Assembly (NCBI GenBank): GCA_964354655.1
Contig: CAYHAL010000004.1
Location: 2,841 to 66,840, forward strand
Direction: 5' to 3'
Source of the DNA: an uncultured Dehalococcoidales bacterium
GTDB taxonomy: Bacteria > Chloroflexota > Dehalococcoidia > Dehalococcoidales > E44-bin46
Length of the DNA stretch: 64,000 nucleotides
In this document: positions 14,519-35,713 of the stretch, one piece after another
Layout: each line of letters starts with the position of its first letter
Numbering within the stretch: position 1 is the stretch's first letter
Translations under genes and position numbers: made by a program
Notes under the pieces: generated by a model
Told to the model about the DNA's origin: nothing
Databases searched by the model: none
The model's input: only the letters and a program-made list of their open reading frames with translations

Positions 14519-15679
14519 GTGGACTTTCAGTTAAACGAAGAGCAAAAAATGCTAAAGAGTCTGGTGCACGAGGTGGCTGAGAAGGAATTTCGTCCTAAAG
14601 TGGCTGAATGGGAGGCTTCTGGCGAATGGTTTCATGAGGAGCATATCAAGAAACTGGCAGACCTAGGTCTCCTGGGGCTGACCTTGCCTGAGGAATATGG
14701 AGGCCAAGGCAGGAGCGCTTTTGAGGCCGTTCTAGCCATTGAAGAGCTAGCACGAGTATGGCCAGGCTGTGCTTTCCCTGTTTTTGAATCTAGCGTAGGA
14801 CCGGTCAGAGTGATTGAGCAATTTGGCACCGAGGAGCAGAAACGGAAATATATACCTCCTGTATGTCGAGGTGAATCCTCGATTGCCGTTGGTATGACCG
14901 AACCAGATGCAGGCTCAGCCCTGACTGACCTTAGCACAAAAGCAGTACTGGATGGCGATCACTATATTGTCAATGGTAACAAGTGCTTCATTACCGAGGG
15001 AGGTTACGCTGACGTTTATATGGTATACGTGAGGCTAAGCGAACAGAAAGGTGCCAGGGGCATTGGTGGGCTGATTATTGAGAAGGGGGTGCCGGGTTTT
15101 TCCTTCGGCAATCAGGAGCAATTTATGGGCCTCAACGGCATGCCAAGCTGTGACCTAGTTTTTGAAGATTGTCATGTGCCTAAAGAGAACCTGGTGGTCA
15201 AAGAGGGGGATTTCAGGAAGCTAATGGCTGCATTTGACCTTGAGCGATGTGGCAACGCCACTATGTGCCTTGGGATAGCTCAGGAAGCCCTTGAACAAGC
15301 GATGGCGTATTCTCAGCAAAGAAAGCAGTGGGGCAAAGGGATATGTGAATTTCAAGCAATCCAGTTTATGTTAGCCAACATGGCAATAAAGGTTGAGTCA
15401 TCCCGTTTTCTGATATATCGGGCAACAGCCAATGCGGCAATGGGCTTGCCTTCTCCCCTCGAGACCAGCCTTGCTAAATGCCTGGCTAATGAAATGGTGA
15501 GGGAGGTTGCCGGGATGGCCATCCAGATATTCGGTGGCTATGGCTATTCCAAGCAGTACCCCATAGAGCGTATGTTTCGTGATGGCTGGGGCTGGGGAAT
15601 TGCTGGTGGGACTATTGAGATGCAGAAAATTACCATAGCCTCTCAGCTTCTAAACCGCAGATTCGACCAGAGAAGATAG
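14519..15679 (+). CDS. acyl-CoA dehydrogenase
   Basis: 386 aa; GMTEPDAGS, FITEGG and the C-terminal QIFGGYGY blocks. GTG start with SD aaaggagg. Confidence 0.92.
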   Translation: MDFQLNEEQKMLKSLVHEVAEKEFRPKVAEWEASGEWFHEEHIKKLADLGLLGLTLPEEYGGQGRSAFEAVLAIEELARVWPGCAFPVFESSVGPVRVIEQFGTEEQKRKYIPPVCRGESSIAVGMTEPDAGSALTDLSTKAVLDGDHYIVNGNKCFITEGGYADVYMVYVRLSEQKGARGIGGLIIEKGVPGFSFGNQEQFMGLNGMPSCDLVFEDCHVPKENLVVKEGDFRKLMAAFDLERCGNATMCLGIAQEALEQAMAYSQQRKQWGKGICEFQAIQFMLANMAIKVESSRFLIYRATANAAMGLPSPLETSLAKCLANEMVREVAGMAIQIFGGYGYSKQYPIERMFRDGWGWGIAGGTIEMQKITIASQLLNRRFDQRR

Positions 15680-17385: not shown

Positions 17386-18576
17386 TCAAGCTTGAGGCTC
17401 ATATTGGATAGCAATGCCCTTTTCTATTAACTGCTGGATTTCCTGTTCACTATATCCCAGCTCTGCTAGAACTTGGCTGGTGTGCTCACCAAGCTGTGGG
17501 GTTTTCATCCTCGTTTCCGGTAGCTCTCCTGAGATCATAATTGGTGCTCGAACTGTCTTAATTAGCCCTTTGCCAGGATAATCCCATTCCTCAATTAGAT
17601 TCCGAAACTTTATTTGGATGTCCTGGCTAACTTCGCCCACATTTAAAAGCTTACCACATGGTACATTGGCCGCTACCAGCCTGGACTCCAGTTCATCACT
17701 CGTATATTGTTTGCAGACTTCGCTTACTTTACGCACCAGCTCAGTCCGATGTTTACTCCTTTCCTCGATTGTAGAATAACTGGAGTCTCTGGCAAGTTCG
17801 TCTAGTCCAAGTGCTTGACAAAAAGCCACCCAGAATCTATCTGTACTGGCCCCAATCCAGATGGGCCTGTCTTTAGTATCAAAGGCTTGGTAAGGCGTAA
17901 ACACCGCATGCCCTGATCCGGTGCGTGATGGAAGTTTACCAGTGATGGAATGATGGGTTATATAGTAGCTCATCGCTGAAACCGCGGTGTCTAACAGGGC
18001 GATATCTATCCTCTGTCCCTTACCTGTTTTCTCTCGGTCTAGCAAACAGGCAAGGATGGCAGAAACTGCGTATAAGCCGCTTGTCATATCAACAAGGGAG
18101 GTAGCCTGTCTCACCGGAGGTCGATCTGGTTCCCCGGTTATTATCATGATGCCTGACATCGCCTGAGCTACTGGGTCATAAGCCGGGCGCCGACTATAAG
18201 GTCCCTCTTGCCCAAAACCAGATATTGAACAATATATTATTCGGGGGTTTACTTGAACTACCCTATCATAACCTAGGCCAAGTTTATCTATGGTGCCAGG
18301 CATAAAGTTTTCAATGAAAACGTCGGCTGTCTTGACCAATTTTAGAGCTATTTCGTGGCCCTCCTTTGTCCTTAAGTCCAGCGCTATACCTCGTTTGTTA
18401 CGGTTCAAAGCTAGTAAAAATGCGCCATCCATAACGTAGCGTATATGTTCACCTTTGAGCGGCTCAATCTTCACTACGTCGGCGCCCATATCTCCTAGCA
18501 ACATGGTGGCAAAGGGACCAGAAGCCACCGCACTCAAATCAATAACTTTTATTCCTTGTAACAGATTCATGCCCAC
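17386..18576 (-). CDS. CoA-transferase family III protein (CaiB/BaiF/formyl-CoA transferase-like)
   Basis: 396 aa; the N-terminal GIKVIDLS..A.GPFATMLLGDMGADVVKIE block is typical of the family. Confidence 0.88.
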   Translation of the reverse strand: MGMNLLQGIKVIDLSAVASGPFATMLLGDMGADVVKIEPLKGEHIRYVMDGAFLLALNRNKRGIALDLRTKEGHEIALKLVKTADVFIENFMPGTIDKLGLGYDRVVQVNPRIIYCSISGFGQEGPYSRRPAYDPVAQAMSGIMIITGEPDRPPVRQATSLVDMTSGLYAVSAILACLLDREKTGKGQRIDIALLDTAVSAMSYYITHHSITGKLPSRTGSGHAVFTPYQAFDTKDRPIWIGASTDRFWVAFCQALGLDELARDSSYSTIEERSKHRTELVRKVSEVCKQYTSDELESRLVAANVPCGKLLNVGEVSQDIQIKFRNLIEEWDYPGKGLIKTVRAPIMISGELPETRMKTPQLGEHTSQVLAELGYSEQEIQQLIEKGIAIQYEPQA

Positions 18577-22788: not shown

Positions 22789-23058
22789 ATGGCATATAAG
22801 ATTCGAGAGAATTGCTGTAATCTCTGCGGCTTGTGTGATATAGAGTGTTTAAACCAAGCAATTACTGAGGGCAAGATAAGCTTTGTGATTGACCCTGATA
22901 AGTGCACCGAGTGTGTAGGTAACTACCAATCACCAAAGTGTGCTGAGGTGTGTAACCTAGATTGCCCTGTACCTGATCCCGACCACGTGGAAAGCCACGA
23001 GCAATTGCTTGAAAAGTGGCACCGGTTACACCCAGCTAAAACTCCGATTGTTACTTAA
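22789..23058 (+). CDS. 4Fe-4S dicluster ferredoxin (YfhL-like)
   Basis: CNLCGLCDIEC and CTECVG...C..VC cysteine motifs; 89 aa, directly upstream of the AOR gene. Confidence 0.85.
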   Translation: MAYKIRENCCNLCGLCDIECLNQAITEGKISFVIDPDKCTECVGNYQSPKCAEVCNLDCPVPDPDHVESHEQLLEKWHRLHPAKTPIVT

Positions 23059-23152
23059 AGATTGAGGGGGTGAGATTATGGATAATGGATAGTTGATTGG
23101 TTAATTTAAGTAATGCAAGGTGAGAGGAAAAAGTAAAAAAGGGGGGAAAAGG

Positions 23153-25045
23153 ATGATAAAAGGTGGCTACAGAGGGAAAATATTGCGCGTGGATTTGACC
23201 ACGGGTAGTATCACTGTTGAGGGGTTACCTGACGAAAGCATACTAAGAAAGTATGTGGGCAATTTTGGCTTGGGTCTATGGTATCTGATGAAGGAGTTGC
23301 CTGATGGTGTTGGTCCTTTGGAGCCAGAGAACCCCTTAATTTTCCTGAATGGTCCTCTTGTTGGGACAAGGGTGCCGTGCCCCAATAACTGCACCATCAC
23401 TACATTGAACGCCGATACTGGGTTTACTGCTGGTCGCGCTCACAGCCATGGCTGGTTTGGTCCCTTCCTGGCTATGGCTGGGTATGATGGCATCATATTT
23501 ACCGGCGCCTCGGATAAATGGGTTTATCTCTGGATTGATGATGGTAAAGTTGAGCTCCGGGATGCAGCTAAGTTCGTGGGCTTGGATACTCACGAAACGG
23601 AAGACGCTGTTAAGGAGAACCTCGGCGTTCCTACCGAGGTTGGAGCCGTAGGAGGGGCAAGTGTTGCTGCCATCGGACCGGCGGGCGAACACATATGTGC
23701 TGGGGCGCTGATTGCCAATGACAAGAACCATTCATTTTCCCACTCCGGTGTTGGTGCGGTAATGGGCTCCAAGCGCTTGAAGGCTATAGCGGTTAGGGGA
23801 ACCGGTGAGGTTCCGGTATACGATGCCGAAAAGCTCAAATCAATAACCAGGGAATGGACCAAGAAGGCGACTACGGCAGGGATGTTTCCCATCATTGGTC
23901 AGGCTGGAGTCCCAAGTAGCAACTATAAGGGAGTTATAGGGCTTGTCGGGCTGTCAGCAAAGAACTGGACGGTAAATGTCATCCCCGGCTTCGGTGATGG
24001 CATGACCAAGCATAAGATTACCCCTAAACCATGTTACCGGTGCCCGGTGGCCTGTTCCTATGATGTAGAAGTGGTATCGGGTCCATATAAGGGCTATGTA
24101 GCCTCATTATCCGGTGGTGGAGAGAATCAGGAAGGGGCGTCATCTATTGTTGGCGTTGGTGGCAAAGGCCCTGGCGAGGTATGGTACCTGACAGACCTTA
24201 ATGACCGGCTTGGTTTCGAAACAAGCACCGTGGGCTGTGCCATGGCTGTTGCCTTTGAGGCTTATGAAAAGGGGCTATTGACAAAAGAGGTTACCGATGG
24301 TCTAGAGTTGAAATGGGGGGATGTTAAAGTAGTCGAAACCCTGCTCAGGAAGGTTGCCAACAGAGACGGGTTCGGGGCAATGTTAGCCGAGGGACCAAAG
24401 GTTGCTGCACAGCGTGTTGGCTTACCTAATGCAGCAGTTCACATCAAGGGCTCAGGGATGAACCTCCATGACTGGAGAAGAGCCTGGGGAAACTATTTGG
24501 GGCAAATTGTTAGTGGAGGTTCTGGTTGGCCGGCACCCGGCGCTGATTGCTGGACATCTGAAGCCGATGCTGGTTACCCGGAGAAGCCCGACCCATTAAG
24601 CCCATACGGAAAGGCAAAAGAGGTGGCAAAAACAGGCATTATAAAATTCTGGAATGATTGTATCGGGTGCTGCTGGTTTGGAACCTGGGGCGTTGTTGGC
24701 ATTATGAAACATACCGCAGATGCTATAGCTGACGTCGTCGGCTGGGAGGGCTTCACCGCTGAGGAAGCTTTACTGGTAGGAGAGCGGGTGGTAAGCTTGG
24801 AGAGGATATTTAACATGAAGCACGGGCTAACGGCTGATGATGATATAAAGGTATCACCTCGGCTGACCGAGCCGGCACCAGCCGATGCTGGTCCTGCCGC
24901 TGGTTTAAGTATTGCGCCTTACATTGAAGGCTGGGTGCGAGACTACTACGAGGAGATGGGTTGGGAGCGAAAGACGGGTAGACCGCTGAGGTCAACAATG
25001 AAAAGGTTAGGGCTTGAAGAATTCATAGATGTCGTCTGGGGTTAA
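23153..25045 (+). CDS. aor: aldehyde:ferredoxin oxidoreductase (tungsten/molybdopterin AOR family)
   Basis: N-terminal GYRGKILRVDLTTG.. block and the AOR family organisation over 630 aa, with a ..CYRCPVAC.. Fe-S ligand region. Start at MIKGGY with SD aagggggg. Confidence 0.9.
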   Translation: MIKGGYRGKILRVDLTTGSITVEGLPDESILRKYVGNFGLGLWYLMKELPDGVGPLEPENPLIFLNGPLVGTRVPCPNNCTITTLNADTGFTAGRAHSHGWFGPFLAMAGYDGIIFTGASDKWVYLWIDDGKVELRDAAKFVGLDTHETEDAVKENLGVPTEVGAVGGASVAAIGPAGEHICAGALIANDKNHSFSHSGVGAVMGSKRLKAIAVRGTGEVPVYDAEKLKSITREWTKKATTAGMFPIIGQAGVPSSNYKGVIGLVGLSAKNWTVNVIPGFGDGMTKHKITPKPCYRCPVACSYDVEVVSGPYKGYVASLSGGGENQEGASSIVGVGGKGPGEVWYLTDLNDRLGFETSTVGCAMAVAFEAYEKGLLTKEVTDGLELKWGDVKVVETLLRKVANRDGFGAMLAEGPKVAAQRVGLPNAAVHIKGSGMNLHDWRRAWGNYLGQIVSGGSGWPAPGADCWTSEADAGYPEKPDPLSPYGKAKEVAKTGIIKFWNDCIGCCWFGTWGVVGIMKHTADAIADVVGWEGFTAEEALLVGERVVSLERIFNMKHGLTADDDIKVSPRLTEPAPADAGPAAGLSIAPYIEGWVRDYYEEMGWERKTGRPLRSTMKRLGLEEFIDVVWG

Positions 25046-25150: not shown

Positions 25151-26224
25151 ATGAAAAAGATTTTTATACCGTTAATGACGGTAGCCGTGGTAGCTGCCCT
25201 ACTCCTTGGCTGTATGCCAGGAGCGCCAGTAACACCACCAGTAACTCCACCGGAAGAAGAGGTCTATACGTTCGTATACCATTGCCCGTTCCCTCCCAAT
25301 CAGATCCTAGCTGACATCGAGGTATGGTACCTTGACCAGGTTGAGGCGAGGAGTGAAGGCAGGATTAAATTTGACAGGATCTTCGGTGGTACTTTGGGGA
25401 CTCTGTTCGCTCAATCCGAGAACGTAACAGGTCGTGTCTTTGATGTGGGGCAGACAAGCTATGTCTATACTCCCGGGCTATACCCGCTGGGAACTGTGAC
25501 CACCTTGCCTTGCATCGAAGATGTTCCGAGAGTATGGGCTCCTGCCGTCCACGAGCTGATGAAGGACCCGCGATTAGTGGCGGAGTATGAAGCCGTAAAT
25601 CAGAAGTACCTGTTCGTCTGGGCTCTGGAGCCGATGGAGATAATGTCCCACGTACCGATCCATACCTTAGAGGACTTCCAGGGGCTGAGGATTAGGGTTC
25701 ACGGTGGTTCTGCCTTAGCTGCTGAGAAGCTGGGGTGGACCGGGGTAACTGTAGCGTGGGAGGAACTCCCTGTGGCTGCGGCGGAGCATGTCGTTGACGC
25801 TGCCTGCTTCCCTGTCCCCATTACCGGTCGCGACGCCGGCTTGCATACTATCTTCAAGTATTACATTACCCCATTCCCCATCTATCAGTTCCATTTCGCT
25901 ACGACTATGAACCTGGATGCTTGGAATGAGCTACCACCTGACCTTCAGCAGGTGATGCTCGACGTTGCCCCTGACGGAGTAGCGTATGGTCTTGACTACC
26001 TCGACGAGAAGATAGCAGGGGGGTTGCAGGATTTAAGAGATGTGGGTGTCGAATTTATCGACTGGCCAGCTTCAGAGATGGACGAGTTTAGAGCACTGGC
26101 AGGCGCGCCGGTGTGGGAGGATTGGGTTGCTGAGCAGGAGGCTGCCGGTCGCCCCGGACAAGAGATATTAGATGCGTTCCAGGCGCTGCTCGCTCAGTCT
26201 AGGTTAAGTACAGGTTTAAAGTAA
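25151..26224 (+). CDS. dctP: TRAP transporter substrate-binding protein (DctP-type), lipoprotein
   Basis: Signal peptide with lipobox LLLGC. 357 aa, followed by the small and large TRAP permease genes. Confidence 0.8.
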   Translation: MKKIFIPLMTVAVVAALLLGCMPGAPVTPPVTPPEEEVYTFVYHCPFPPNQILADIEVWYLDQVEARSEGRIKFDRIFGGTLGTLFAQSENVTGRVFDVGQTSYVYTPGLYPLGTVTTLPCIEDVPRVWAPAVHELMKDPRLVAEYEAVNQKYLFVWALEPMEIMSHVPIHTLEDFQGLRIRVHGGSALAAEKLGWTGVTVAWEELPVAAAEHVVDAACFPVPITGRDAGLHTIFKYYITPFPIYQFHFATTMNLDAWNELPPDLQQVMLDVAPDGVAYGLDYLDEKIAGGLQDLRDVGVEFIDWPASEMDEFRALAGAPVWEDWVAEQEAAGRPGQEILDAFQALLAQSRLSTGLK

Positions 26225-26312
26225 AGACTGGGCAAGATAGGATTAGGGGGGGTTGTGGGGGAGGGCACCTCACGCCCCCTCTTACTAAATTTAGTTTGGG
26301 AAGAAAACGATA

Positions 26313-26804
26313 TTGGGAAGATTAGGCAGGTTTTCAAACTACCTAGCTAAGGCGGAAGACGGGCTAGCCTTAGGTGCGGCATTTGTTATTGGCTTTATGA
26401 TGGTATACACGGTGGTGGCGGTGGTGACGCGTGCTGCCGGGAGCCCGATAAGGGGTTTCACAGAGTATGTTACCCTGATCTTTGTCTTCGTGGTAATGCT
26501 TACCATTTCCTTTGCCCAGCGCCGGGGGGAGCACCTGGCAATGTCGATTGTGTTTGACCGGCTGTCGCCAAGGGCTCGGCGTCGTGTTCTCTGTGTCCTC
26601 CTTTCGCTGGGGATATTCATCTGTTTTCTCCTCACCTGGTCGAGCCTCCGTATGACCATGTTTGCATATGTGATGGGGGATACACTAGTGGGGGCAATAC
26701 AAGTTAAGACCTGGTGGTCACGGATGGCTATGCCCATTGGCTTGGGCATAACTACCGTGCGGCTCGTCGTCCAGATGGTTCAGACAGTGAGAAGGGAGAT
26801 ATGA
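26313..26804 (+). CDS. dctQ: TRAP transporter small permease (DctQ-type)
   Basis: 163 aa, 4 TM helices, lying between the DctP and DctM genes. Non-ATG (TTG) start as tracked. Confidence 0.8.
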   Translation: MGRLGRFSNYLAKAEDGLALGAAFVIGFMMVYTVVAVVTRAAGSPIRGFTEYVTLIFVFVVMLTISFAQRRGEHLAMSIVFDRLSPRARRRVLCVLLSLGIFICFLLTWSSLRMTMFAYVMGDTLVGAIQVKTWWSRMAMPIGLGITTVRLVVQMVQTVRREI

Positions 26805-26829
26805 TGATTAAGGGGAGAGTTAATAGGAC

Positions 26830-28137
26830 ATGAGCCCATTGACTGTGGGGATTATTCTGATGGGGGTTCTGGCGGCACTGATAGTGCTGAAGTTCCCCAT
26901 CGGTTTTTCCTTTCTCATCGTCGGCTTCTTTGGATTCGCTGCCCTGAGGGGTTTTGACAGCGCTTTTGCCTACCTCGCCAGTAAAGTCTTTTCTGGTACT
27001 GCCTGGTATTTACTCACTGTGGTGCCCCTGTTCGTCCTCATGGGGGAGTTTGCCTTTGCCGCCGGGATTGGCGAAGGCCTTTTCAGGGCAGGGCGGGCTT
27101 GGCTGGGGCAGGTTAGAGGCGGGCTGGTGATGGCTACCACCATGGCTAACGCCGCATTTGGGGCTGCCTGCGGCATGCCCACGGCAGCCGTGGCAGTGTT
27201 TGGTAGGATGGCTCTCCCCGAGATGCTCAAGGCCAAGACCGACCGCTCCCTGGCGGCAGGCACAGTGGCGGCAACGGCAGGGCTGTCGGCGGTAGTCCCT
27301 CCCAGTGTACCCGCCATTATTTATGGCTTCCTCGCCATAGCCCCCATTCACAAGTGCCTTATCGCCGGTCTTTTCCCTGGTTTAGTTACTGCCCTGGTTT
27401 ACGTGGGGATGATATCTATCAGGCTGAGAATCAACCCCACCTTAGCCCCAGTCACCAAAGCCACGGTCACCTGGAGGGAAAGGTTCCGCTCACTTGGAGG
27501 AATCGGGCCAATGTTAGCGATAGTCATACTAGCTATCGGGGGCATTTATGGCGGTATATTTACCCCAACTGAAGCCGGCGCTGTCGGCGCTACCGGTATG
27601 CTCATCATCGGTGTGGCGTTCAGGAGGTTCAACTGGCCCAAACTCCGCGAGGCCCTTCTCATGTCTGCCCGAGACACCAGCGTCATCTTCATTATTATTG
27701 GCGGGATTGTTCTCTTCTCCGGCTTCCTCGCTGTGAGCGGTATCAGTGGGGCAATGACCAATTTTGTCACTGGTCTACCTGTGTCGCCTACCGTGGTTGT
27801 CATCTTCACTGTGTTTATGTATCTCGGCTTGGGTTGCGTTCTTGACCCGTTCTCGATGATGTTCCTGACGGTTCCCTTGCTGGCACCGATTATGAAGACG
27901 CTGGGGGTTGACCTCATCTGGTGGGGTGTGCTGGTGGTGAAGATGGCAACGATTGGTATGATTACTCCCCCGGTGGGTATAAACTGCTATATGCTTAGGA
28001 TTGTGTGCCCCGAATTAGATTTAGGGGAAATCTTTAGAGGCGCTATTCCGTTCTTGGCGGCGGAGGCGGTGGTTATGACTCTGCTGATTGTCTTCCCTCA
28101 GATTAGCCTGTGGCTGCCGGGCATGATGTATCGTTGA
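26830..28137 (+). CDS. dctM: TRAP transporter large permease (DctM-type)
   Basis: 435 aa polytopic membrane protein with typical DctM organisation. Confidence 0.9.
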   Translation: MSPLTVGIILMGVLAALIVLKFPIGFSFLIVGFFGFAALRGFDSAFAYLASKVFSGTAWYLLTVVPLFVLMGEFAFAAGIGEGLFRAGRAWLGQVRGGLVMATTMANAAFGAACGMPTAAVAVFGRMALPEMLKAKTDRSLAAGTVAATAGLSAVVPPSVPAIIYGFLAIAPIHKCLIAGLFPGLVTALVYVGMISIRLRINPTLAPVTKATVTWRERFRSLGGIGPMLAIVILAIGGIYGGIFTPTEAGAVGATGMLIIGVAFRRFNWPKLREALLMSARDTSVIFIIIGGIVLFSGFLAVSGISGAMTNFVTGLPVSPTVVVIFTVFMYLGLGCVLDPFSMMFLTVPLLAPIMKTLGVDLIWWGVLVVKMATIGMITPPVGINCYMLRIVCPELDLGEIFRGAIPFLAAEAVVMTLLIVFPQISLWLPGMMYR

Positions 28138-28232
28138 TGTTTGTTGCTGGCAAAATCCTTAATAAGCCAACGTTGTTTTATTTTTATAAAGGCGGGTTTA
28201 AGGGTAAATAGTAGAGAAGGTGAATATAGCAA

Positions 28233-29435
28233 ATGATGCCACGAACGTCTTTTAGGAAAGGGAAGTCTCTCGATGAGATGTATGAGATTGACAATGCTAA
28301 ATATAAAAGGTTCGATTCATCAAAAGAGGGTTTTGTAACGCTTACGGAAAAGAAGACTGGTAAACCTGTACATAGCATCCAAGACATCGTGAATTTTCTC
28401 ATCGGAGGCTTTGTGCCGGTTATGATGAAAGACATTCAGGGGAACACATCCGGCAAATCGCGGACAGACCACGCTCTTCAGTTTGGAGCCGCTGCAGTAA
28501 ATTACATCTTAGGCATGTACGGCGACCAGAATGCTAACGAGCAATTTCTAAAGTGGAATTCCTTGTTTGTACCAGAAGACCTAAATAAATGGCGGTCAGA
28601 GGCTGACCCGGACAAGCTTACCTCCCTCATAAAAGACGCTGCTAAGCTGTATGGCGCATGCCTTGTTGCCACTACGGAGCTTGACAGCAGATGGGTCTAT
28701 GAGGGAGATGTACATAAACGCTTCATCTTTGATGATGTTGAACAGCCGATGGAGAAAGGCGATACCCTTGTAATTCCCAACTCAATAAATAGAGCGGTAG
28801 TAATGGCTGTTGAAATGAATAAGGAGCTTATTTTACAATCACCCGGAGCAGGTGCAACTGCGGCTACCGATCTTGGATATGCCATGATGGGCTTCATATC
28901 TATATCCTTAGCCGAATGCATACGGGCTCTCGGTTATAACGCGATACCATGCATGAATGATACTGCTCTAAGCATACCGTTAGCGATAAGCGCTGGGCTT
29001 GGTCAACTTGGTAGACATGGTCTTCTAATAACACCTGAATATGGTTCTTGCATTCGCTTGTGCAAGGTTTTGACAGATATGCCCCTTAATGTCGATAAGC
29101 CTATTGATTTTAGACAAACAGAATTTTGCGACCAATGTTTGGTTTGTGCCAAAGAGTGTCCCGCCGATGCTATAAGCTTTAAAGATAGAACAATGAGCGG
29201 ATACAATGAGAACAATAATCCTGGTGTTAAGAAGTGGTATATACAAGCGGAAAAATGCCTCCAATTTTGGCTGGATAATGGCACGCCTTGTGCTGTCTGC
29301 ATAGCTGTATGCCCCTTTACGGAGGGCTTTGCCTCCACAGCAAGACAGTGCTTACAATGCGAGAGATGTGTTGCCCCTGATTGTCCACTACAATCGATGC
29401 CTATACAAGACCGAAGCAAGGACACCTATAAGTGA
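28233..29435 (+). CDS. reductive dehalogenase-superfamily protein (RdhA/QueG-like), cytoplasmic type without TAT signal
   Basis: EIDNAKYKRFD resembles the RdhA mature N-terminal block. Iron-sulfur motifs are CDQCLVCAKECP and C-x10-CAVCIAVCP, plus an extra CLQCERCVAPDCP. There is no RRxFxK leader, and no small membrane-anchor gene lies adjacent. Confidence 0.75.
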   Translation: MMPRTSFRKGKSLDEMYEIDNAKYKRFDSSKEGFVTLTEKKTGKPVHSIQDIVNFLIGGFVPVMMKDIQGNTSGKSRTDHALQFGAAAVNYILGMYGDQNANEQFLKWNSLFVPEDLNKWRSEADPDKLTSLIKDAAKLYGACLVATTELDSRWVYEGDVHKRFIFDDVEQPMEKGDTLVIPNSINRAVVMAVEMNKELILQSPGAGATAATDLGYAMMGFISISLAECIRALGYNAIPCMNDTALSIPLAISAGLGQLGRHGLLITPEYGSCIRLCKVLTDMPLNVDKPIDFRQTEFCDQCLVCAKECPADAISFKDRTMSGYNENNNPGVKKWYIQAEKCLQFWLDNGTPCAVCIAVCPFTEGFASTARQCLQCERCVAPDCPLQSMPIQDRSKDTYK

Positions 29436-29515
29436 GGAAAGGTGGGGATGCTTGGGAGCAATATTTAGTGCCAAATGCCAAGCTATAAAATGATTAACTT
29501 CAGGTTTTAATTGAG

Positions 29516-30835
29516 ATGAAGACTGCTCAGATTGAAAATACAATACCAGATAATATAGAAATCAAATTTAGAGACGGGAAAATAATACACACTGAAACAG
29601 GTAGTTATACCGTTCTACCACCCGATACCATTATAACCGCGGAGAAGGTGTTTGAAATAATTGGTGTGGTTAAAGTAGAGCAAGTTAATCCTAACTTTAC
29701 CGATGGTGTTCCTATTTTTAGACTAAATGAAGCCCCAGTAAAAGCAAAATGTCACCGTCAGGCTTGCCAGTGGGCACTCCCGCCTACTCCCTTGAATAAT
29801 CCTCCCAAGGAAAGCTTTGGTAAGGGGATGACTGTACCGCAATCGAAGGCAAGCGCGATGATGGAAGCAGTAGAGAGATATTGCGGGCAAAGATTTCATC
29901 ACAGTAGGGTTATTAATGCAAATTATGAGGAAGTGCGGGACTACGCTGTTCACCCCTCTGAATTTAATTTGCCGACCTTGCCACCAAAGTGTGAAAACTG
30001 CGTGGAGAGGAATAGGGGATGTTTTCAAGAACTTCAAAACGCTTGCCAGGAATGGAGTTGGGGTTACTCATTGATAACTAAATCACCAGCTCTAATTCCC
30101 TCTGCATTGGTTTATTACCCCTATATATCGAAGAACAATCTATCGTTTATATTTAATGATACTGGCGGTCTCTCAGCAGGAAATACACTGGAGGAGGCAA
30201 TATTGCAAGGGATGGCCGAGGTAATTGAAAGAGATGCGCTATACTATGCTTTTAATCTGGGCAATCTAAGGAGCATGCCAATGGTCACCTTCAAAAATAC
30301 AAAAAATAGACATATTCAAAAATTTATTGCTGAGGTACTGCCCCCAGAGGGTATCTTTGCTTTCCATATACAGAACAAAAATCTTGACCTTAATATTGCT
30401 TCATTTAGTGCCTTTATATGCTACAAGATAGGGAATGAGCGTCATTACTTTGGTGGCTCAGGAACGAACCTTAATCCGGAGACAGCTTTACTAAGAGCAT
30501 TAACTGAGCTGGAGCAGCAGAAAGTTAGGCAAAAAGTCTTTGCTGAATTTGACCCTAATGACTTGGTGTCGCACAGTAGCCTAAAACAAGAGGATGTTAT
30601 TGCTCTTGAAGAAATCCCTAATCAATCCACAGGTGATATAAGAAAAGATGTAGAGTTATATTTAGATAGATTATTAATAAACGACACAAATGTTATCATA
30701 ATTAACTTAACTCACCCCGAGATAGGAATACCAGTTGTTCGGGTTGTAATACCAAAACTGATTTCATATTCGGGGAGCCCTATTAAAGAGTCGCTGTTTC
30801 TTGATACAATTAAGGCTTTTGGTGGGCAGTGCTAA
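29516..30835 (+). CDS. ycaO: YcaO-domain protein (ATP-dependent amide-activating enzyme family)
   Basis: SFGKGMTVPQSKASAMMEAVERYCG and GMAEVIERDA blocks of the YcaO ATP/Mg site; 439 aa. The gene is markedly AT-rich by eye. Confidence 0.85.
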   Translation: MKTAQIENTIPDNIEIKFRDGKIIHTETGSYTVLPPDTIITAEKVFEIIGVVKVEQVNPNFTDGVPIFRLNEAPVKAKCHRQACQWALPPTPLNNPPKESFGKGMTVPQSKASAMMEAVERYCGQRFHHSRVINANYEEVRDYAVHPSEFNLPTLPPKCENCVERNRGCFQELQNACQEWSWGYSLITKSPALIPSALVYYPYISKNNLSFIFNDTGGLSAGNTLEEAILQGMAEVIERDALYYAFNLGNLRSMPMVTFKNTKNRHIQKFIAEVLPPEGIFAFHIQNKNLDLNIASFSAFICYKIGNERHYFGGSGTNLNPETALLRALTELEQQKVRQKVFAEFDPNDLVSHSSLKQEDVIALEEIPNQSTGDIRKDVELYLDRLLINDTNVIIINLTHPEIGIPVVRVVIPKLISYSGSPIKESLFLDTIKAFGGQC

Positions 30836-30944
30836 CTTATCACTCCGTTCACTAATTTGGCTTTTTAGCGATTAGGGGTGATACATTTTCACCCAGTTAC
30901 TGCAATATCTGATACCTAGACTATCCCATCTCCTGTTTCAACTG

Positions 30945-31778
30945 CTATTTCTTGAATCGGATCGACTTGAACTTCTGCATTTGTTCTCTTATTGCGACTT
31001 CGGTCGGCAGGCGTTCCATACTCGATGCGCCATAAAACCCATGTATACCCTTTGTTTTGCTGAGAACATACTCAGCATCTTCAGGCATGGAGATTGGACC
31101 CCCGTGGCACAAGGCAATGATGTCCGGATTTACAGATTTTGCCGCGTCGCATATTTCCTGAACCCTGGCTGGTGCTTCCTCGAGTGACACTGCAGTCGTG
31201 GCTCCGATGGCCCCCTTGGTGGTCAGTCCCATATGCGCGACAATAATGTCAGCACCGGCTTCGGCCATTGCCTTTGCTTCCTTAGCATTAAATGCGTATG
31301 GTGTAGTCAGGAGGTCCAGTTCATGAGCCTTGCGAATCATGTCAACTTCAAGACCATACCCCATACCGGTCTCTTCAAGGTTTTGCCGGAACAAACCATC
31401 GCATAAACCAACCGTTGGAAAGTTCTGGACTCCTGAAAAGCCGATCTCCTTAACCTGCTTAAGGAAAACGTCCATCTGGCGGAAAGGATCCGTGCCGCAC
31501 ACTCCGGCAAGAACCGGCGTGTCCTTGACAATGGGCAGCACTTCGCCAGCCATTTCCATGACGATAGCGTTGGCGTCACCGTAGGGCATCAGGCCGGCAA
31601 GCGAGCCTCTACCTGCCATGCGGAAACGTCCGCTGTTATAAATCACAATCAGGTCAACTCCCCCTGCCTCTTCAAATTTCGCGCTGATACCAGTTCCGGC
31701 GCCGGCACCGATAATCGGAAGACCCGCCTCAATATTCTTCCTCAACCGTTCAAGGACTTCACTACGTGTAAATGCCAT
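30945..31778 (-). CDS. PEP-hydrolase-like TIM-barrel protein (TIM-barrel signal-transduction family, usual partner of UPF0261)
   Basis: 277 aa; [35 protein letters not shown].. is the family N-terminal block. Its start lies 3 nt downstream of the UPF0261 stop. Confidence 0.75.
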
Positions 31779-31780
31779 AA

Positions 31781-33022
31781 TTACCTCCTTTTCTTATTGT
31801 TTGCCTGTTTGATTAGATCTAACATCATCTCAACCGCTTTGGCAGAAAACTGGGGATCATTGATATTGTTATCCATTTCAATTACAGGAATACCCGCCTT
31901 GACGTTGGCCTTGATGGCATCGAACATTGCCCTATCCGCCTCACGGTCACAGAAAGGCTGGCCGTCGCCGTTAAGAATCGATACCCCTTTCAGAGGAATG
32001 AGAAAGGCAACTGGACCTTTGGCAGCGTTTGCTTTCTCAGCGAAAACCTTTCCCATTTTTTCATTCTCCTCATTGTTCGTGCGCATGAGCGTAACTGATG
32101 GGTTCCACTCGTAGAAGGTGCGGTTTGCCTCTTTGTATTTCGCTGGTACCGTGTCCGGTGCCCCGAAATTAGCCATGTCCACGCAGCCTGGAACGATCAG
32201 GTGAGGTATTCCCATTCGGCCGGGGGCATCAAGGCGTTCTGGGCCTGCGTCAAGCACCCCGCCGCAGACGGTATCAGCCCACTCGGTTGTCGTGATGTCA
32301 AGGACAGCGTCCACTAATCCCTCGTTAACCAGGCTCTCCATAGTCTTTCCACCGGTACCGGTGGCGTGGAAGACAAGAACCTCGTAACCCTTTGCCGACA
32401 ATTCCTTTACACAAGCGTTCACGCACTCCGTGGTGTTACCAAACATTGATGCCGTGATAACCGGCTTATCCTCCGTGGCTTCTGGAATATCCGTTTCCAC
32501 CATACCGCAAATTGCTCCCACTGCACGCGAAAAGATAATCCTCGAAACCCGGTTGATGCCGGCAACGTCAACAATTGATGGAATCATCGTGATATCCTTT
32601 GTCCCAACGTAAACCGACACATCCCCTGATGCTACGGTTGATGCACAAACCTTGGGAACACCCACCGGAAGAATACGCATCGCTGAAGTGACCACGGTGG
32701 TCGCAGCACTACCACCCATACCAAAAATCCCGTCAAACTTGCCCTCATCATAAAGTGACTTGATGAGCCTCGCTGCCCCGGCACACATGACCTTCATGGC
32801 TTCACCGCGATCCTTCTTTTTACGAAGCTGCTCCAGGTTCCCCCTACCCGACTCAGCAACCCTGTCCGCTTCAACGTCCACAGGAAAGAGAGCCGTCGTT
32901 CCGAGGACGCCCGTATTAACTGTAAAAACCTTATGTCCACGGCTGAGTATCTGTTCCCGCACAAAGGCATACTCTTCTCCCTTGGTATCAAAAGCACCGA
33001 TTAAACAAATTGTTTTCTGCAT
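31781..33022 (-). CDS. UPF0261 / Tm-1-like ATP-binding protein
   Basis: 413 aa; the pattern ..[12 protein letters not shown]....I...G......D.G. and co-operonic pairing with the TIM-barrel partner. Confidence 0.75.
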
Positions 33023-33303: not shown

Positions 33304-34890
33304 TCAAGTTGGCATAATGCCGTGTTTTTTCTCAGGTCTCTGTTCCGCTTTGTTTATTGCCATTTCTAGGGCTTGGATAAGCCTCGGCCTGGTTTCTGCC
33401 GGCTCGATTACGTCGTCAATGTGTAGGTGCTCAGCGGCTCTATATGGGTTGGCGAACGTGTCTCTATACTCCTTTATCTTCTCCTCCAACAGTTTGTCGG
33501 GGTCGTCTGTCTTTTCCAACTCTTTTCTGAATATTATGGCTGCCGCTCCATCCGGTCCCATCACCGCCAGTTCAGTGGTAGGCCAGCAAAATACGGCATC
33601 AGCACCCAGGTCTTTACTGCACATTCCAAGGTAAGAGCCTCCGTAAGCTTTTCTGATAGTGAGGGTAATCTTTGGCACCGTAGCCTCGGAATAAGCGTAA
33701 AGCATCTTAGCTCCGTGTCTAATTATTCCTCTCCATTCCTGTTCCGTTCCTGGTAGATATCCAGGCACATCAACCAAGTTGACGATCGGAATATTAAAGG
33801 CGTCGCAGAACCGGATGAACCGGGAGGCCTTATCACAGACATCGATATCCAGAGCTCCCGCTTTTGACATCGGTTGTTGAGCTATTATGCCCACCGACCA
33901 TCCATTGAGTCTAGCAAAACAGGTGATAATGTTAGTGGCAAATATGGGGAATATCTCGAAGTAATTTTTCTTCCCATCCTGCCTCTGGTCAAATACCCTC
34001 TCAATTATCTTGTGCATGTCATATGGACTGCTTGGATTCGCCGGGACAATATCAAACAGGGTTGTGTCGGTACGGGTTGGCTTGTCTCCCCAATCAACCC
34101 TTTTAGGAGATTCTCTATAGCTTGATGGCAAATAGCTTAGCAGCTCCTTTATACTTTGCAGGCACTCCTCCTCACTGTTTTCCGAGCGGCAAGCAACTCC
34201 CGCCTTCTTTTGAGCGACAATAGCACCACCCAGTTCCTCATGGCTAATCTCTTCTCCCATAATAGCCTTAACCACCTGCGGTCCGGTTATATAGGCATAA
34301 CTTATGTCTTTAACCATAAATATGAAGTCCGTGAGCGCTGGGGAATATACGCCGCCCCCAGCACAAGGACCAAGGATAGCGCATATTTGAGGGATTACAC
34401 CAGAATAGATTGAGTTTCGATAGAAAATCTGTCCATATCCAGACAAAGCATCAACGCCGTCCTGAATCCTTGCCCCTCCGGAATCATTTATTCCTATGAT
34501 AGGACACCCCGCTCTTGCGGCGCTATCCATTATTCGGCAAATCTTTGCGGCATGTATTTCTGATAGGGTTCCACCTATGCTGGTGAAATCTTGGGCATAA
34601 ACATACACCTTTCTGCCGTCAATCTTTCCATACCCAGTGATTACCCCGTCCGCTGGCACCTGTATTCTATCCATACCAAAAGCGGTACCTCTATTTGTAG
34701 CAAACATTCCAATCTCGCAAAATGTCCCCTCATCCAGTAACTTCTGAATTCGCTCACGTGCTGTTAGCTTACCTCGCTTTCTCTGTTTTTCCACATTCTC
34801 GCTGCCCCCCATCTCCTCAACCTTTTGTCTACGCTTTTGTAGCTCAGCTAGCAATTTCTTCTTTATTTGCTTATCTTCATTTGTCGTCAT
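33304..34890 (-). CDS. methylmalonyl-CoA carboxyltransferase / propionyl-CoA carboxylase beta-type carboxyltransferase
   Basis: Two-domain carboxyltransferase blocks (..GGARIQDGV..SGYGQIF.., ..GIIRHGAK..YA..EATVPKIT...RKAYGG.Y.). The start is set at MTTNED (SD gagggg), abutting the epimerase stop. Confidence 0.9.
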   Translation of the reverse strand: MTTNEDKQIKKKLLAELQKRRQKVEEMGGSENVEKQRKRGKLTARERIQKLLDEGTFCEIGMFATNRGTAFGMDRIQVPADGVITGYGKIDGRKVYVYAQDFTSIGGTLSEIHAAKICRIMDSAARAGCPIIGINDSGGARIQDGVDALSGYGQIFYRNSIYSGVIPQICAILGPCAGGGVYSPALTDFIFMVKDISYAYITGPQVVKAIMGEEISHEELGGAIVAQKKAGVACRSENSEEECLQSIKELLSYLPSSYRESPKRVDWGDKPTRTDTTLFDIVPANPSSPYDMHKIIERVFDQRQDGKKNYFEIFPIFATNIITCFARLNGWSVGIIAQQPMSKAGALDIDVCDKASRFIRFCDAFNIPIVNLVDVPGYLPGTEQEWRGIIRHGAKMLYAYSEATVPKITLTIRKAYGGSYLGMCSKDLGADAVFCWPTTELAVMGPDGAAAIIFRKELEKTDDPDKLLEEKIKEYRDTFANPYRAAEHLHIDDVIEPAETRPRLIQALEMAINKAEQRPEKKHGIMPT

Positions 34891-34891
34891 G

Positions 34892-35293
34892 TTATCCCCT
34901 CGGCTCAACTAGTTCGATTAATACCTTCGTTTCTTTAGGATGCAGAAAGGCTATCCTAGTGCCTTTAACACCGCTTCTTGGCGTCTCATCGATGAACTGA
35001 ATCCCTTTTTCTCTCAGCGTGTCTAGCGCCTGTTGAATATCACTTACTTCCAGAGCCAAGTGATGTAGTCCCTCCCCCCTTTTTTCAATGTACTTAGCAA
35101 TAACTCCTTCGGGATCGGTTGACTCTAGTAACTCAATCTTACCCTCACCCACCGGGATAATGGCAGTCCTCACCTTCTGCGCTTCCACAATCTCTATATC
35201 TTTAACCTTTAGCCCTAGGGCATCGGTATATAGCTTTAGTGCATCTTCGATACTATTTACCGCAATCCCTATATGGTTAATCTTTTTAATCAA
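34892..35293 (-). CDS. mce: methylmalonyl-CoA epimerase (VOC/glyoxalase fold)
   Basis: [12 protein letters not shown]...Y...LG......E......V..A......IELLE....[22 protein letters not shown] favour a TTG start at 35293 (SD ggagggga), giving the typical ~133 aa. Confidence 0.85.
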
Positions 35294-35696: not shown

Positions 35697-35713
35697 AGCA
35701 AATACCTCTCGGC

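What the first reader, a model, noticed from the sequence alone, without database searches (positions are those of the whole stretch)
29516..30835. Stand-alone YcaO next to the RdhA-like gene, with no TfuA, E1-like or precursor gene in sight
The protein has the YcaO ATP/Mg-binding blocks (..KASAMMEAVERY.., ..GMAEVIERDA..). The flanks contain no TfuA-like gene, no ThiF/E1-like or dehydrogenase partner, and no convincing small precursor ORF (29436-29515 and 30836-30944 inspected on both strands). It also carries a CENCVERNRGC cysteine cluster. It is the most AT-rich gene in the window by eye (for example the stretch at about 30290-30340). YcaO enzymes install thioamides or azolines on peptide or protein backbones, and a protein substrate is precedented (the methyl-coenzyme M reductase thioglycine). 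A YcaO linked to a corrinoid/Fe-S reductase has not, to my knowledge, been described. The neighbour could be its substrate, or the pair may simply have been co-transferred.
Basis: partly seen in the sequence, partly recalled or inferred. Interest (0 to 1): 0.6.

Follow-up and report, generated by a model that had tools for sequence, protein, structure and literature searches.

The report
Metal-site YcaO tied to tungsten-enzyme cluster
This stand-alone YcaO belongs to a small, previously undescribed clade that anaerobic bacteria and archaea keep beside a tungsten-type aldehyde oxidoreductase, and often a cytoplasmic dehalogenase-like enzyme, so it probably modifies one of those proteins rather than a peptide antibiotic.

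Summary
Positions 29516-30835(+) encode a 439-aa YcaO with intact ATP/Mg motifs. It is the lowest-GC gene in the window, and the 64 kb hold no TfuA, ThiF/E1, SagB or ThiS. No small ORF is conserved near it.

The interpretation needs re-centring. The YcaO belongs to a small, sharply bounded clade. It is defined by two insertions that supply invariant Cys79/His80 and Cys159-x2-Cys162-x6-Cys169.

Of 16 lineages with at least 3.5 kb upstream, 13 carry a highly conserved aldehyde:ferredoxin oxidoreductase (AFOR; window 23120-25045). Ten carry the TAT-less RdhA-like gene directly upstream. Five have AFOR and no RdhA gene called, though one of these keeps an RdhA pseudogene.

Related Dehalococcoidales show three states at this one site: no cassette, YcaO alone, or RdhA+YcaO. 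The AFOR and RdhA families also occur without the YcaO.

The nearest relatives are RiPP cyclodehydratases and the McrA thioamidating YcaO. The best reading (about 0.4) is a TfuA-independent enzyme that modifies a protein backbone amide, probably to a thioamide. AFOR is the likeliest target and RdhA the second. No paper in the searched library links YcaO with these enzymes.

The parts
22789..23058 (+). 89-aa YfhL-family 2x[4Fe-4S] ferredoxin directly upstream of the AFOR. It is the likely electron acceptor or donor of the module.
   Evidence: NCBIfam NF033683 scores 88.6 bits against a cut-off of 86. The same small gene precedes the AFOR in L047, L053 and L055 (cluster c18).
23120..25045 (+). 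Aldehyde:ferredoxin oxidoreductase (tungstopterin AOR family). By homologue N-termini the true start is probably the ATG at 23153. It is the most constant neighbour of the YcaO clade.
   Evidence: Pfam AFOR_N matches at 8e-64 and AFOR_C at 2e-70. The nearest solved structure is P. furiosus AOR 1aor, E 8e-85. It is 61-90% identical in 34 of the 57 clade loci surveyed and is present in 13 of 16 lineages with at least 3.5 kb upstream.
25151..28137 (+). TRAP transporter DctP/DctQ/DctM (25151-26224, 26313-26804, 26830-28137). In this lineage it lies between the AFOR and the cassette.
   Evidence: Pfam DctP, DctQ and DctM. The same AFOR-DctPQM order occurs in L047, L060, L084 and L012.
28195..30940 (.). 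Low-GC accessory cassette (RdhA-like plus YcaO), bounded by indel junctions relative to related Dehalococcoidales contigs.
   Evidence: The window, L047 (YcaO only) and L084 (neither gene) share the DctM 3' end plus about 55 nt and then diverge. They rejoin at the 3' end of the PEP-hydrolase-like gene.
28233..29435 (+). 400-aa cytoplasmic RdhA-like corrinoid/2x[4Fe-4S] protein with no twin-arginine signal.
   Evidence: TIGR02486 scores 190 against a cut-off of 160. PceA 4uqu matches at E 2e-59, with the Tyr246, Asn272 and Arg305 equivalents aligned as identical residues (read by eye). The N-terminus 'MMPRTSFRK' has no RR pair.
29349..29384 (+). Extra C-terminal C373-x2-C376-x2-C379-x4-C384 motif of the RdhA-like protein, beyond the two standard Fe-S motifs.
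   Evidence: It is conserved in 11 of 12 aligned clade RdhA sequences. The alignment to PceA ends before it.
29516..30835 (+). 439-aa stand-alone YcaO of the AFOR/RdhA-associated clade.
   Evidence: The model has pLDDT 90.8 and pTM 0.92. The best structural match is the thioamide-forming MJ1094, 6pe3.
29843..29881 (+). YcaO ATP/Mg motif 1 (S110-Y122, with E117 and E120).
   Evidence: Invariant in A1 and shared with the McrA-type and fused YcaOs.
30209..30238 (+). YcaO ATP/Mg motif 2 (G232-A241, with E235 and E238).
   Evidence: Invariant in A1 and aligned to outgroups.
29723..29785 (+). Clade-specific insertion 1 (residues 70-90), carrying invariant C79-H80-R81 (nt 29750-29758).
   Evidence: It is absent from the fused ThiF-YcaO and McrA-type relatives. 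C79, H80 and R81 are invariant.
29990..30022 (+). C159-x2-C162-x6-C169. C162 and C169 lie in clade-specific insertion 2. With C79/H80 this forms a putative metal (Zn or Fe-S) site.
   Evidence: The three Cys are invariant in 23 sequences. The 13-residue insertion is absent from all outgroups. Spatial clustering could not be checked because no model coordinates were available.
17386..18576 (-). Family III CoA-transferase, a recurrent member of the wider neighbourhood in other lineages. Here it lies 10 kb away.
   Evidence: Pfam CoA_transf_3 matches at 5e-125. Cluster c3 occurs in 19 clade loci.
14519..15679 (+). Acyl-CoA dehydrogenase, a recurrent member of the wider neighbourhood.
   Evidence: Pfam ACAD domains. 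Cluster c4 occurs in 18 clade loci.

Best explanation
The gene encodes a catalytically competent, partner-less YcaO of a distinct clade. I propose that it is an accessory maturation enzyme for the redox module it travels with.

Proposed mechanism: it uses ATP to O-phosphorylate one backbone amide of a folded or nascent protein and replaces the oxygen, most likely with sulfur to give a thioamide. This is what the TfuA-independent McrA enzymes of M. jannaschii and M. kandleri do with free sulfide.

The most probable client is the co-encoded tungsten-type AFOR. The cytoplasmic RdhA-like protein is a second or alternative client.

The clade-specific Cys4/His site may bind Zn or an Fe-S cluster. 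It may position or carry the sulfide, standing in for TfuA/ThiS.

Shown here: the fold, the ATP/Mg motifs, the absence of partners and of a precursor gene, the conserved gene linkage, and the cassette behaviour. Inferred: the substrate class, the identity of the client, the O-to-S chemistry, and the role of the Cys site.
For: - **Competent enzyme.** The YcaO domain and all Mg/ATP residues are intact and invariant.
- **Relatives act on backbones.** Both nearest relative groups act on peptide or protein backbones. The fused ThiF-YcaO P0076 (37-39% identity) sits in a canonical RiPP cluster with PqqD and radical SAM genes. The methanogen McrA-Gly thioamidation YcaOs are 30-31% identical. The best structural match is the TfuA-independent thioamide enzyme MJ1094.
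- **No RiPP machinery.** The 64 kb hold no E1/ThiF, RRE/PqqD, SagB, TfuA or ThiS. The tail lacks the Pro-rich segment seen in the fused outgroup. No small ORF is conserved.
- **Linkage.** AFOR is present in 13 of 16 lineages and RdhA in 10 of 16, plus one IS-disrupted pseudogene. These span Chloroflexota, Synergistota, Bacillota, Atribacterota, Desulfobacterota, Sumerlaeota, Bathyarchaeia and Methanomethylicia, plus a Jordarchaeaceae clade YcaO and AFOR that appear to share one 7,379-bp contig by matching contig length.
- **Gene order.** YcaO lies directly after AFOR in L014, L017, L066, L068 and L069.
- **Co-divergence.** Pairwise distances correlate: YcaO-AFOR r 0.73, YcaO-RdhA r 0.82.
- **Cofactor genes nearby.** MoaA adjoins the YcaO in L014 and L053. 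In two AFOR-less lineages (L058, L063) a DMSO-reductase-family molybdopterin enzyme is the neighbour.
- **Precedent.** Optional protein thioamidation by YcaO without TfuA is known for E. coli uL16 (PMC13063428) and for McrA (PMC5589413).
Against: - No direct evidence exists for any modification or for a protein substrate.
- Four of four other AFORs of the same subfamily (70-81% identity), sampled on long contigs, have no YcaO within 10 kb. The enzyme family therefore works without it.
- No AFOR position separates YcaO-linked from unlinked AFORs.
- In L009/L050 the YcaO has no Mo/W-pterin enzyme within the sequence available and sits among acyl-CoA genes. In L058 and L063 it has no AFOR, and a DMSO-reductase-family molybdopterin enzyme is the neighbour instead.
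- Sequence scores do not separate thioamide from azoline chemistry: TIGR03604 scores 139.5 bits and TIGR03266 scores 138.3 bits.
- Charge complementarity is absent.
- All hosts are MAGs or metagenome contigs. Many contigs are short, so absences are soft.
Confidence: 0.4

Rival explanations
1. Small-molecule or cofactor enzyme. The YcaO ATP-activates an amide, lactam or enol oxygen of a metabolite in an organic-acid catabolic pathway. Alternatively it acts on a cofactor such as the pterin lactam. The AFOR, RdhA-like protein, CoA-transferases and acyl-CoA dehydrogenases would run that pathway.
For: The YcaO is always embedded in catabolic genes. These include family III CoA-transferase (19 loci), ACAD (18 loci), CoA_trans A/B, acyl-CoA ligases, an OYE/FadH-type reductase, IclR, and TRAP or DASS transporters. 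This holds even where AFOR and RdhA are absent, as in L009/L050 and L063. No peptide precursor is encoded. MoaA and molybdopterin enzymes recur nearby.
Against: To my knowledge no YcaO is known to act on a non-peptide substrate. Both nearest relative groups are peptide or protein enzymes. Maturation factors are commonly encoded inside catabolic operons, so the context does not discriminate.
Confidence: 0.2
2. The RdhA-like protein specifically is the YcaO's substrate, and AFOR only supplies low-potential electrons through the ferredoxin.
For: Where present, RdhA is always the gene immediately upstream of the YcaO, with a gap of 6 to about 225 nt. L048 and L049 have RdhA-YcaO with no AFOR in 3.3-5.3 kb upstream. 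The YcaO-RdhA distance correlation of 0.82 is higher than that with AFOR. In the MAG of L008, a 73% RdhA homologue exists elsewhere in the genome.
Against: Of 16 lineages, 5 have AFOR plus YcaO with no RdhA gene called, though L012 among them keeps an RdhA pseudogene. L047 and L060, from the 95-97% identical sister lineage, have YcaO at the same site without RdhA. In L012 the RdhA is split by an IS while the YcaO stays intact. Related TAT-less RdhAs in Heliomicrobium and Contubernalis stand alone.
Confidence: 0.12
3. Assembly or redox-accessory role. The Cys4/His site is an Fe-S cluster, and the protein acts as an ATP-dependent subunit or chaperone. Possible roles are cofactor insertion, cluster repair or electron gating for the W or corrinoid enzymes. 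It would not modify an amide.
For: Two clade-specific insertions create an invariant Cys-rich site. The protein is constantly associated with Fe-S, W-pterin or corrinoid enzymes, a ferredoxin and MoaA.
Against: The full catalytic YcaO motif set is invariant. No YcaO is known with such a role. The metal site is unverified.
Confidence: 0.1
4. RiPP maturase whose precursor is encoded elsewhere or was overlooked.
For: The nearest outgroup is a RiPP cyclodehydratase. Stand-alone YcaOs exist in bottromycin-type pathways (my knowledge).
Against: No conserved small ORF occurs in the 57 clade loci surveyed. No RRE, protease or exporter genes are present. The neighbours are catabolic and redox genes throughout.
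Confidence: 0.08
5. No functional link. The cassette is selfish or hitch-hiking DNA that happens to sit here.
For: The GC is low and the cassette is an indel polymorphism. IS fragments lie in the neighbourhood.
Against: The same gene order is kept across at least eight phyla and two domains, with co-diverging sequences and invariant catalytic residues.
Confidence: 0.05

Closest known systems
TfuA-independent McrA-glycine thioamidating YcaO (methanogenesis marker 1; MJ1094 6pe3/6peu, M. kandleri 6ci7)
   Same: Stand-alone enzyme of about 400-440 aa with no E1 partner. It shares the N-terminal roughly 75-residue region, the short non-Pro-rich C-terminus and the ATP/Mg motifs. It is the best structural match, has a protein substrate and lives in sulfidic anaerobic hosts.
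   Different: Only 30-31% identical. It scores 138 bits against the family cut-off of 365. It carries two Cys/His insertions and lacks a roughly 12-residue segment of the McrA type. Most hosts are bacteria without MCR, and the neighbours are AFOR and RdhA rather than mcr genes.
E. coli YcaO, the uL16 backbone thioamidase (PMC13063428)
   Same: A partner-less YcaO acting on a full-length protein with no TfuA encoded. The modification is optional for the protein family.
   Different: A very distant subfamily. NF040716 scores 25 bits against a cut-off of 700, and the PDB profile E-value is 2e-4. It has a different size (586 aa) and no acidic pI signature.
Fused E1-like-YcaO azoline cyclodehydratases (LynD/TruD; outgroup P0075/P0076)
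   Same: The closest sequence relatives outside the clade, at 37-39% identity. The YcaO core is shared.
   Different: The clade has no ThiF/E1 domain, no PqqD/RRE neighbour, no Pro-rich C-terminus and no precursor gene. TIGR03604 scores 139.5 bits against a cut-off of 219.
[4Fe-4S]-dependent ATP-driven thiolases (TtuA/NcsA type; from my own knowledge, not tested)
   Same: A possible mechanistic analogy: ATP activation of a carbonyl, followed by attack of a sulfide held on a Cys-ligated cluster.
   Different: An unrelated fold (PP-loop) with tRNA substrates. Whether the YcaO Cys site binds any cluster is unknown.
'Simplified cytosolic' RdhA-like proteins of sediment Desulfobacterota and Chloroflexota (PMC12219181)
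   Same: The neighbour gene fits the description: about 395 aa, no TAT signal, no RdhB, and IclR and beta-oxidation neighbours.
   Different: That study mentions neither YcaO nor aldehyde oxidoreductases. The window protein is closer to PceA (2e-59) than to NpRdhA (2e-23) and has an extra C-terminal Cys4 motif.

Membership tests
YcaO superfamily (PF02624 / TIGR00702) | YcaO domain above the curated cut-off | tested here: met
   PF02624 scores 203 bits against a cut-off of 25.7. TIGR00702 scores 118 against 75.65.
YcaO superfamily (PF02624 / TIGR00702) | Conserved Glu/Arg ATP-Mg binding residues | tested here: met
   E117, E120, R121, E235, E238, R239, R327 and E331 are invariant in 23 clade members and aligned with outgroups.
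Azoline-forming TOMM cyclodehydratase (SagD / TIGR03604) | Score above the family cut-off | tested here: not met
   139.5 bits against a cut-off of 219.25.
Azoline-forming TOMM cyclodehydratase (SagD / TIGR03604) | E1-like/Ocin-ThiF partner or fusion, and an RRE | tested here: not met
   No PF00899 or PqqD in the 64 kb, nor in the annotated homologue loci. The outgroup P0076 has both.
Azoline-forming TOMM cyclodehydratase (SagD / TIGR03604) | Pro-rich (PxPxP) C-terminus and a nearby Cys/Ser/Thr-rich precursor gene | tested here: not met
   The C-terminus 'YSGSPIKESLFLDTIKAFGGQC' has no Pro-rich tail. No small ORF is conserved.
McrA-glycine thioamidation YcaO (TIGR03266) | Equivalog score above the cut-off | tested here: not met
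   138.3 bits against a cut-off of 365.
McrA-glycine thioamidation YcaO (TIGR03266) | Host encodes methyl-coenzyme M reductase | not testable with these tools
   No mcr genes occur in the window. Most hosts are bacterial MAGs. Whole genomes were not available.
TfuA-dependent thioamide RiPP YcaO | Adjacent TfuA | tested here: not met
   No TfuA domain in the window or in L002-L007.
E. coli-type YcaO (NF040716; uL16 / S12-RimO accessory) | Equivalog score and the roughly 580-aa architecture | tested here: not met
   25 bits against a cut-off of 700. The protein is 439 aa. Foldseek TM-score is about 0.5.
Thioamide-forming activity in general | ATP- and sulfide-dependent O-to-S exchange on a backbone amide | not testable with these tools
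   This requires biochemistry or mass spectrometry.
Reductive dehalogenase RdhA (TIGR02486), the neighbour gene | Family score, two Fe-S motifs, and the catalytic Tyr/Arg/Asn of PceA | tested here: met
   190 bits against a cut-off of 160. Fer4_7 and Fer4_16 match. The Tyr246, Asn272 and Arg305 equivalents are identical in the 4uqu alignment (by eye).
Respiratory RdhA, the neighbour gene | Twin-arginine signal and an RdhB anchor gene | tested here: not met
   The N-terminus 'MMPRTSFRK' lacks an RR pair. No RdhB-like gene is present. Only the Acetomicrobium lineage has a small TM ORF.
AFOR (PF02730 + PF01314), the upstream gene | Both AFOR domains | tested here: met
   215 and 238 bits. 1aor matches at E 8e-85.

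The most novel reading that the evidence does not exclude
This clade is a third class of protein-targeting YcaO. It installs a backbone thioamide, or another amide-derived modification, in a tungsten aldehyde oxidoreductase and/or a cytoplasmic corrinoid reductive dehalogenase. It uses its own inserted Cys4/His metal centre, possibly an Fe-S cluster carrying sulfide, in place of TfuA/ThiS.
Probability: 0.22. Interest if true: 0.8.

Novelty: new variant of a known kind. Interest (0 to 1): 0.62.

Why it matters
Only two proteins are known to receive YcaO-made thioamides: McrA, and since 2026 ribosomal uL16. A third client among tungsten or corrinoid redox enzymes would show that backbone thioamidation is a wider way of tuning metalloenzymes in anaerobes.

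AORs and RdhAs are notoriously hard to produce in active form, so an overlooked maturation factor would have practical value.

The clade-specific Cys site offers a testable answer to how TfuA-less YcaOs obtain sulfur.

The cluster is widespread in abundant uncultured sediment lineages (Dehalococcoidia, Atribacterota, Bathyarchaeia). It therefore also bears on how their 'cytosolic RdhA' and AOR genes are interpreted in metagenomic studies.

Tried and rejected
1. **E. coli-type housekeeping YcaO.** Rejected.
2. **Canonical TOMM or TfuA systems.** Rejected by scores below the cut-offs and by a partner search of all ORFs of about 100 aa or more in the 64 kb.
3. **Conserved precursor peptide.** ORFs of 18-99 aa within -4.5 to +2 kb of the YcaO were clustered across the 57 clade loci. 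None was shared beyond two related lineages. The 71/80-aa ORF between RdhA and YcaO in Acetomicrobium is a lineage-specific single-TM protein.
4. **AFOR residues diagnostic of YcaO linkage.** None found.
5. **Reverse association.** AFOR to YcaO was 0 of 4 and RdhA to YcaO was 0 of 3. Neither family depends on a cis YcaO.
6. **Charge complementarity**, as used for EcYcaO/uL16. Uninformative.
7. **Riboswitch or other RNA elements.** Only three tRNAs were found, at 10621-10870.
8. **Promoter and terminator scan.** Not above shuffled expectation.
10. **Literature.** No paper holds YcaO together with 'aldehyde ferredoxin oxidoreductase' or 'reductive dehalogenase'. None holds thioamide together with tungsten and ferredoxin oxidoreductase. 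The five papers holding both YcaO and tungsten are unrelated by title.
Full report
**Observation.**

The ORF 29516-30835(+) encodes 439 aa. It matches Pfam YcaO at E 7e-60. It passes only the generic YcaO model TIGR00702. It falls well below the cut-offs of the SagD/TOMM model (139.5 against 219), the McrA-thioamidation model (138 against 365) and the E. coli S12-accessory model (25 against 700).

The upstream gene 28233-29435 is a true RdhA-family protein. It scores 190 against 160 for TIGR02486 and E 2e-59 to the PceA core, with the catalytic Tyr/Asn/Arg equivalents aligned. It has no twin-arginine signal.

A Pfam scan of every ORF of about 100 aa or more in the 64 kb found no TfuA, ThiF/E1, SagB-type nitroreductase, PqqD or ThiS.

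The YcaO is the lowest-GC gene of 43 genes: GC 0.402 (z -2.9) and GC3 0.361. The RdhA-like gene has GC 0.447 and the flanking genes 0.52-0.56.

**The clade.**

Homologues fall into a tight group of about 74 clusters at 90% identity, 39-97% identical to the query and about 410-465 aa long. Similarity then drops abruptly to fused ThiF-YcaO proteins (37-39%) and methanogen McrA-type YcaOs (30-31%).

In a library of 1.84 billion 50%-identity representatives, the clade collapses to three full-length representatives (753, 555 and 509 bits). The next hit scores 253 bits. In all, 9,421 YcaO-like proteins were detected at E <= 0.001.

Against its nearest relatives the clade has two private insertions. 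Residues 70-90 carry invariant C79-H80-R81. Residues 160-172 carry C162 and C169 next to C159. Together they give an invariant Cys4/His set.

The N-terminal roughly 75 residues and the short tail, which lacks the outgroup's Pro-rich segment, resemble the McrA-type enzymes. The fused outgroup has a Pro-rich tail.

The AlphaFold model is confident (pLDDT 90.8, pTM 0.92). Its best PDB matches are the TfuA-independent thioamide enzyme MJ1094, then LynD and the M. kandleri YcaO. E. coli YcaO is far behind. I could not test whether the Cys residues cluster in space, because no coordinates were available.

**Genomic context.**

I gathered 57 clade loci, counting this window, from look-ups of homologue-encoding contigs, a genome scan and a metagenome scan. 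I annotated them by tblastn and by clustering of ORFs.

RdhA-like then YcaO recurs in the following groups:
- Acetomicrobium (Synergistota)
- Peptococcaceae BRH_c8a
- Atribacterota
- Bacillota
- Deltaproteobacteria
- Sumerlaeota
- Bathyarchaeia

The more constant neighbour is an AFOR. In the window it lies 4.4 kb upstream (23120-25045), separated by a TRAP transporter operon.

Collapsing to 28 lineages, 16 have at least 3.5 kb upstream:

| Content of the upstream region | Lineages (of 16) |
|---|---|
| AFOR present | 13 |
| RdhA present | 10 (plus an IS-disrupted pseudogene in L012) |
| Both | 8 |
| AFOR only | 5 (includes L012, which keeps the RdhA pseudogene) |
| RdhA only | 2 |
| Neither | 1 |

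In L014 and in Methanomethylicia-type archaeal contigs (L017, L066, L068, L069) the YcaO directly follows the AFOR.

Other recurrent neighbours are:
- a YfhL-type ferredoxin before the AFOR (window 22789-23058)
- MoaA (L014, L053)
- family III CoA-transferase and acyl-CoA dehydrogenase (19 and 18 loci)
- CoA_trans A/B and IclR
- TRAP or DASS transporters
- an OYE/FadH-type reductase

In two AFOR-less lineages (L058, L063) a DMSO-reductase-family molybdopterin enzyme is adjacent.

Pairwise distances of the three proteins correlate across lineages: YcaO-AFOR 0.73, YcaO-RdhA 0.82 and AFOR-RdhA 0.91. The module has therefore largely moved and diverged as a unit across phyla and domains.

**A natural experiment at this site.**

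Related Dehalococcoidales contigs share the AFOR-DctPQM ... PEP-hydrolase-like/UPF0261 backbone but differ between DctM and the PEP-hydrolase-like gene:
- L084 has nothing there. Its AFOR is 81% identical.
- L047, L008, L046 and L060 have the YcaO alone. Their YcaO is 95-97% identical.
- The window and L001 have RdhA plus YcaO.

DNA alignments show shared sequence up to about 55 nt after the DctM stop and again from the 3' end of the PEP-hydrolase-like gene. This bounds the cassette at about 28195-30940.

The YcaO's GC is below its locus GC in 28 of 38 loci, while the AFOR's GC is above its locus GC in every locus where it is present.

In the MAG that carries L008, a 73% RdhA homologue sits elsewhere in the genome. 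The AFOR P0123 is probably on the same 51,303-bp contig as the L009 YcaO, more than 10 kb away.

**Reverse association.**

The dependence is one-sided. Four AFORs of the same subfamily (70-81% identity) on other long contigs have no YcaO or RdhA within 10 kb. One AFOR of the 56% tier also has none.

TAT-less RdhAs of Heliomicrobium and Ca. Contubernalis (49-51% identity) stand alone. No AFOR position distinguishes linked from unlinked enzymes. The YcaO is therefore an accessory of a subset of these modules, not a universal maturase.

**Mechanism.**

Every characterised YcaO activates a peptide or protein backbone amide with ATP. This is established knowledge, and the solved relatives appear.

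Both outgroups of this clade do so. P0076 lies in a textbook RiPP cluster with a 52-aa ORF, two radical SAM enzymes, two PqqD genes and a peptidase. The other outgroup thioamidates McrA (PMC5589413).

The clade has lost the E1 domain, and its loci encode neither an RRE/PqqD partner nor a conserved precursor gene. It has gained a Cys/His site and now travels with large redox enzymes.

The most economical reading is a protein-directed, TfuA-independent amide modification, probably a thioamide. This fits the MJ1094-like architecture and the sulfidic habitats of the hosts. AFOR is the likeliest client and RdhA the second. E. coli YcaO/uL16 now gives a second precedent for an optional, TfuA-less protein thioamide (PMC13063428).

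The Cys site could bind Zn or an Fe-S cluster that presents sulfide. The analogy with TtuA-type thiolases is from my own knowledge and is untested. I put this reading at about 0.4.

The rivals are as follows:
- A small-molecule or cofactor substrate, favoured by the pervasive acyl-CoA and transporter context (0.2).
- RdhA as the sole client (0.12).
- An ATP-dependent assembly or redox accessory (0.1).
- A RiPP with an unlinked precursor (0.08).
- Hitch-hiking (0.05).

Independently of the YcaO, the ferredoxin-AFOR-RdhA trio makes sense as a cytoplasmic electron path from aldehyde oxidation to the corrinoid enzyme. That link is inference.

**Comparison and novelty.**

The protein is a member of the YcaO superfamily. 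It fails the tested membership criteria of the TOMM, TfuA-dependent, McrA and E. coli subfamilies.

Full-text searches found no paper that holds YcaO together with 'aldehyde ferredoxin oxidoreductase' or 'reductive dehalogenase'. None holds thioamide together with tungsten and ferredoxin oxidoreductase. The five papers holding both YcaO and tungsten are unrelated by title.

A 2025 survey of sediment RdhAs describes 'simplified cytosolic' RdhA-like proteins with IclR and beta-oxidation neighbours. It mentions neither YcaO nor AOR.

I rate the finding a new variant of a known kind: a new YcaO clade with a new insertion and a new, conserved genomic partnership.

**Caveats.**

- All hosts are MAGs or metagenome contigs.
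- Many contigs are short, so absences are soft.
- The lineage collapsing is approximate.
- No experiment bears on the chemistry.

Noticed in passing
window 29349-29384 (RdhA-like residues 373-384): The RdhA-like clade carries an extra C-terminal CxxCxxCx3-5C motif after the two canonical Fe-S motifs. It is conserved in 11 of 12 aligned members and lies beyond the region that aligns to PceA. It may be a third metal or Fe-S site for electron entry.
   Followed up: partly
window 30945-33022 (- strand): A PEP-hydrolase-like (PF09370) and UPF0261 gene pair lies directly downstream of the cassette. The pair is conserved with or without the YcaO (L084, L047). Its function is unknown and it was not pursued.
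   Followed up: no
window 33304-38100 (- strand) and 38495-43730 (+): A full methylmalonyl-CoA pathway block: carboxyltransferase, glyoxalase-type epimerase, B12-binding subunit, mutase and MeaB. It is followed by enoyl-CoA hydratase, 3-hydroxyacyl-CoA dehydrogenase, an HpaB/4-hydroxybutyryl-CoA-dehydratase-like protein, thiolase and a ChsH2-type OB protein. This suggests an organic-acid fermentation island around the module.
   Followed up: partly
window 16222-16917 and 43752-44192: An rve-type integrase/transposase ORF and an ISL3 transposase fragment flank the catabolic region. This fits mosaic, horizontally assembled content.
   Followed up: no
window 20361-21233 and 48091-48948: Two ketopantoate hydroxymethyltransferase (PanB) paralogues occur within 28 kb, on opposite strands.
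   Followed up: no
window 10621-10870: A cluster of three tRNA genes: Leu-CAG, Arg-GCG and Val-TAC.
   Followed up: yes
L012 8296-9979: In a Desulfobacteraceae MAG the RdhA-like gene between the AFOR and the YcaO is split by an IS element (rve-like fragments on the minus strand). The YcaO and AFOR stay intact.
   Followed up: yes
L090 (same MAG as L008), 1-7359: The unlinked 73% RdhA homologue sits divergently next to an Rrf2 regulator, a ThiF-family protein, cysteine desulfurase-like and cysteine-synthase-like genes. A sulfur-mobilisation neighbourhood could be relevant if the YcaO needs a sulfur donor.
   Followed up: no
L058 2638-4143 and L063 6154-8998: In two lineages without a nearby AFOR, the YcaO neighbours a cytoplasmic DMSO-reductase-family molybdopterin oxidoreductase, with a 4Fe-4S subunit in L063. 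This hints that the link may be to Mo/W-pterin enzymes in general.
   Followed up: partly
L002 7778-7993 (Acetomicrobium): A lineage-specific 71-80 aa single-TM ORF lies between the RdhA and the YcaO. It is not found in other lineages. It could be an RdhB-like anchor remnant or spurious.
   Followed up: partly
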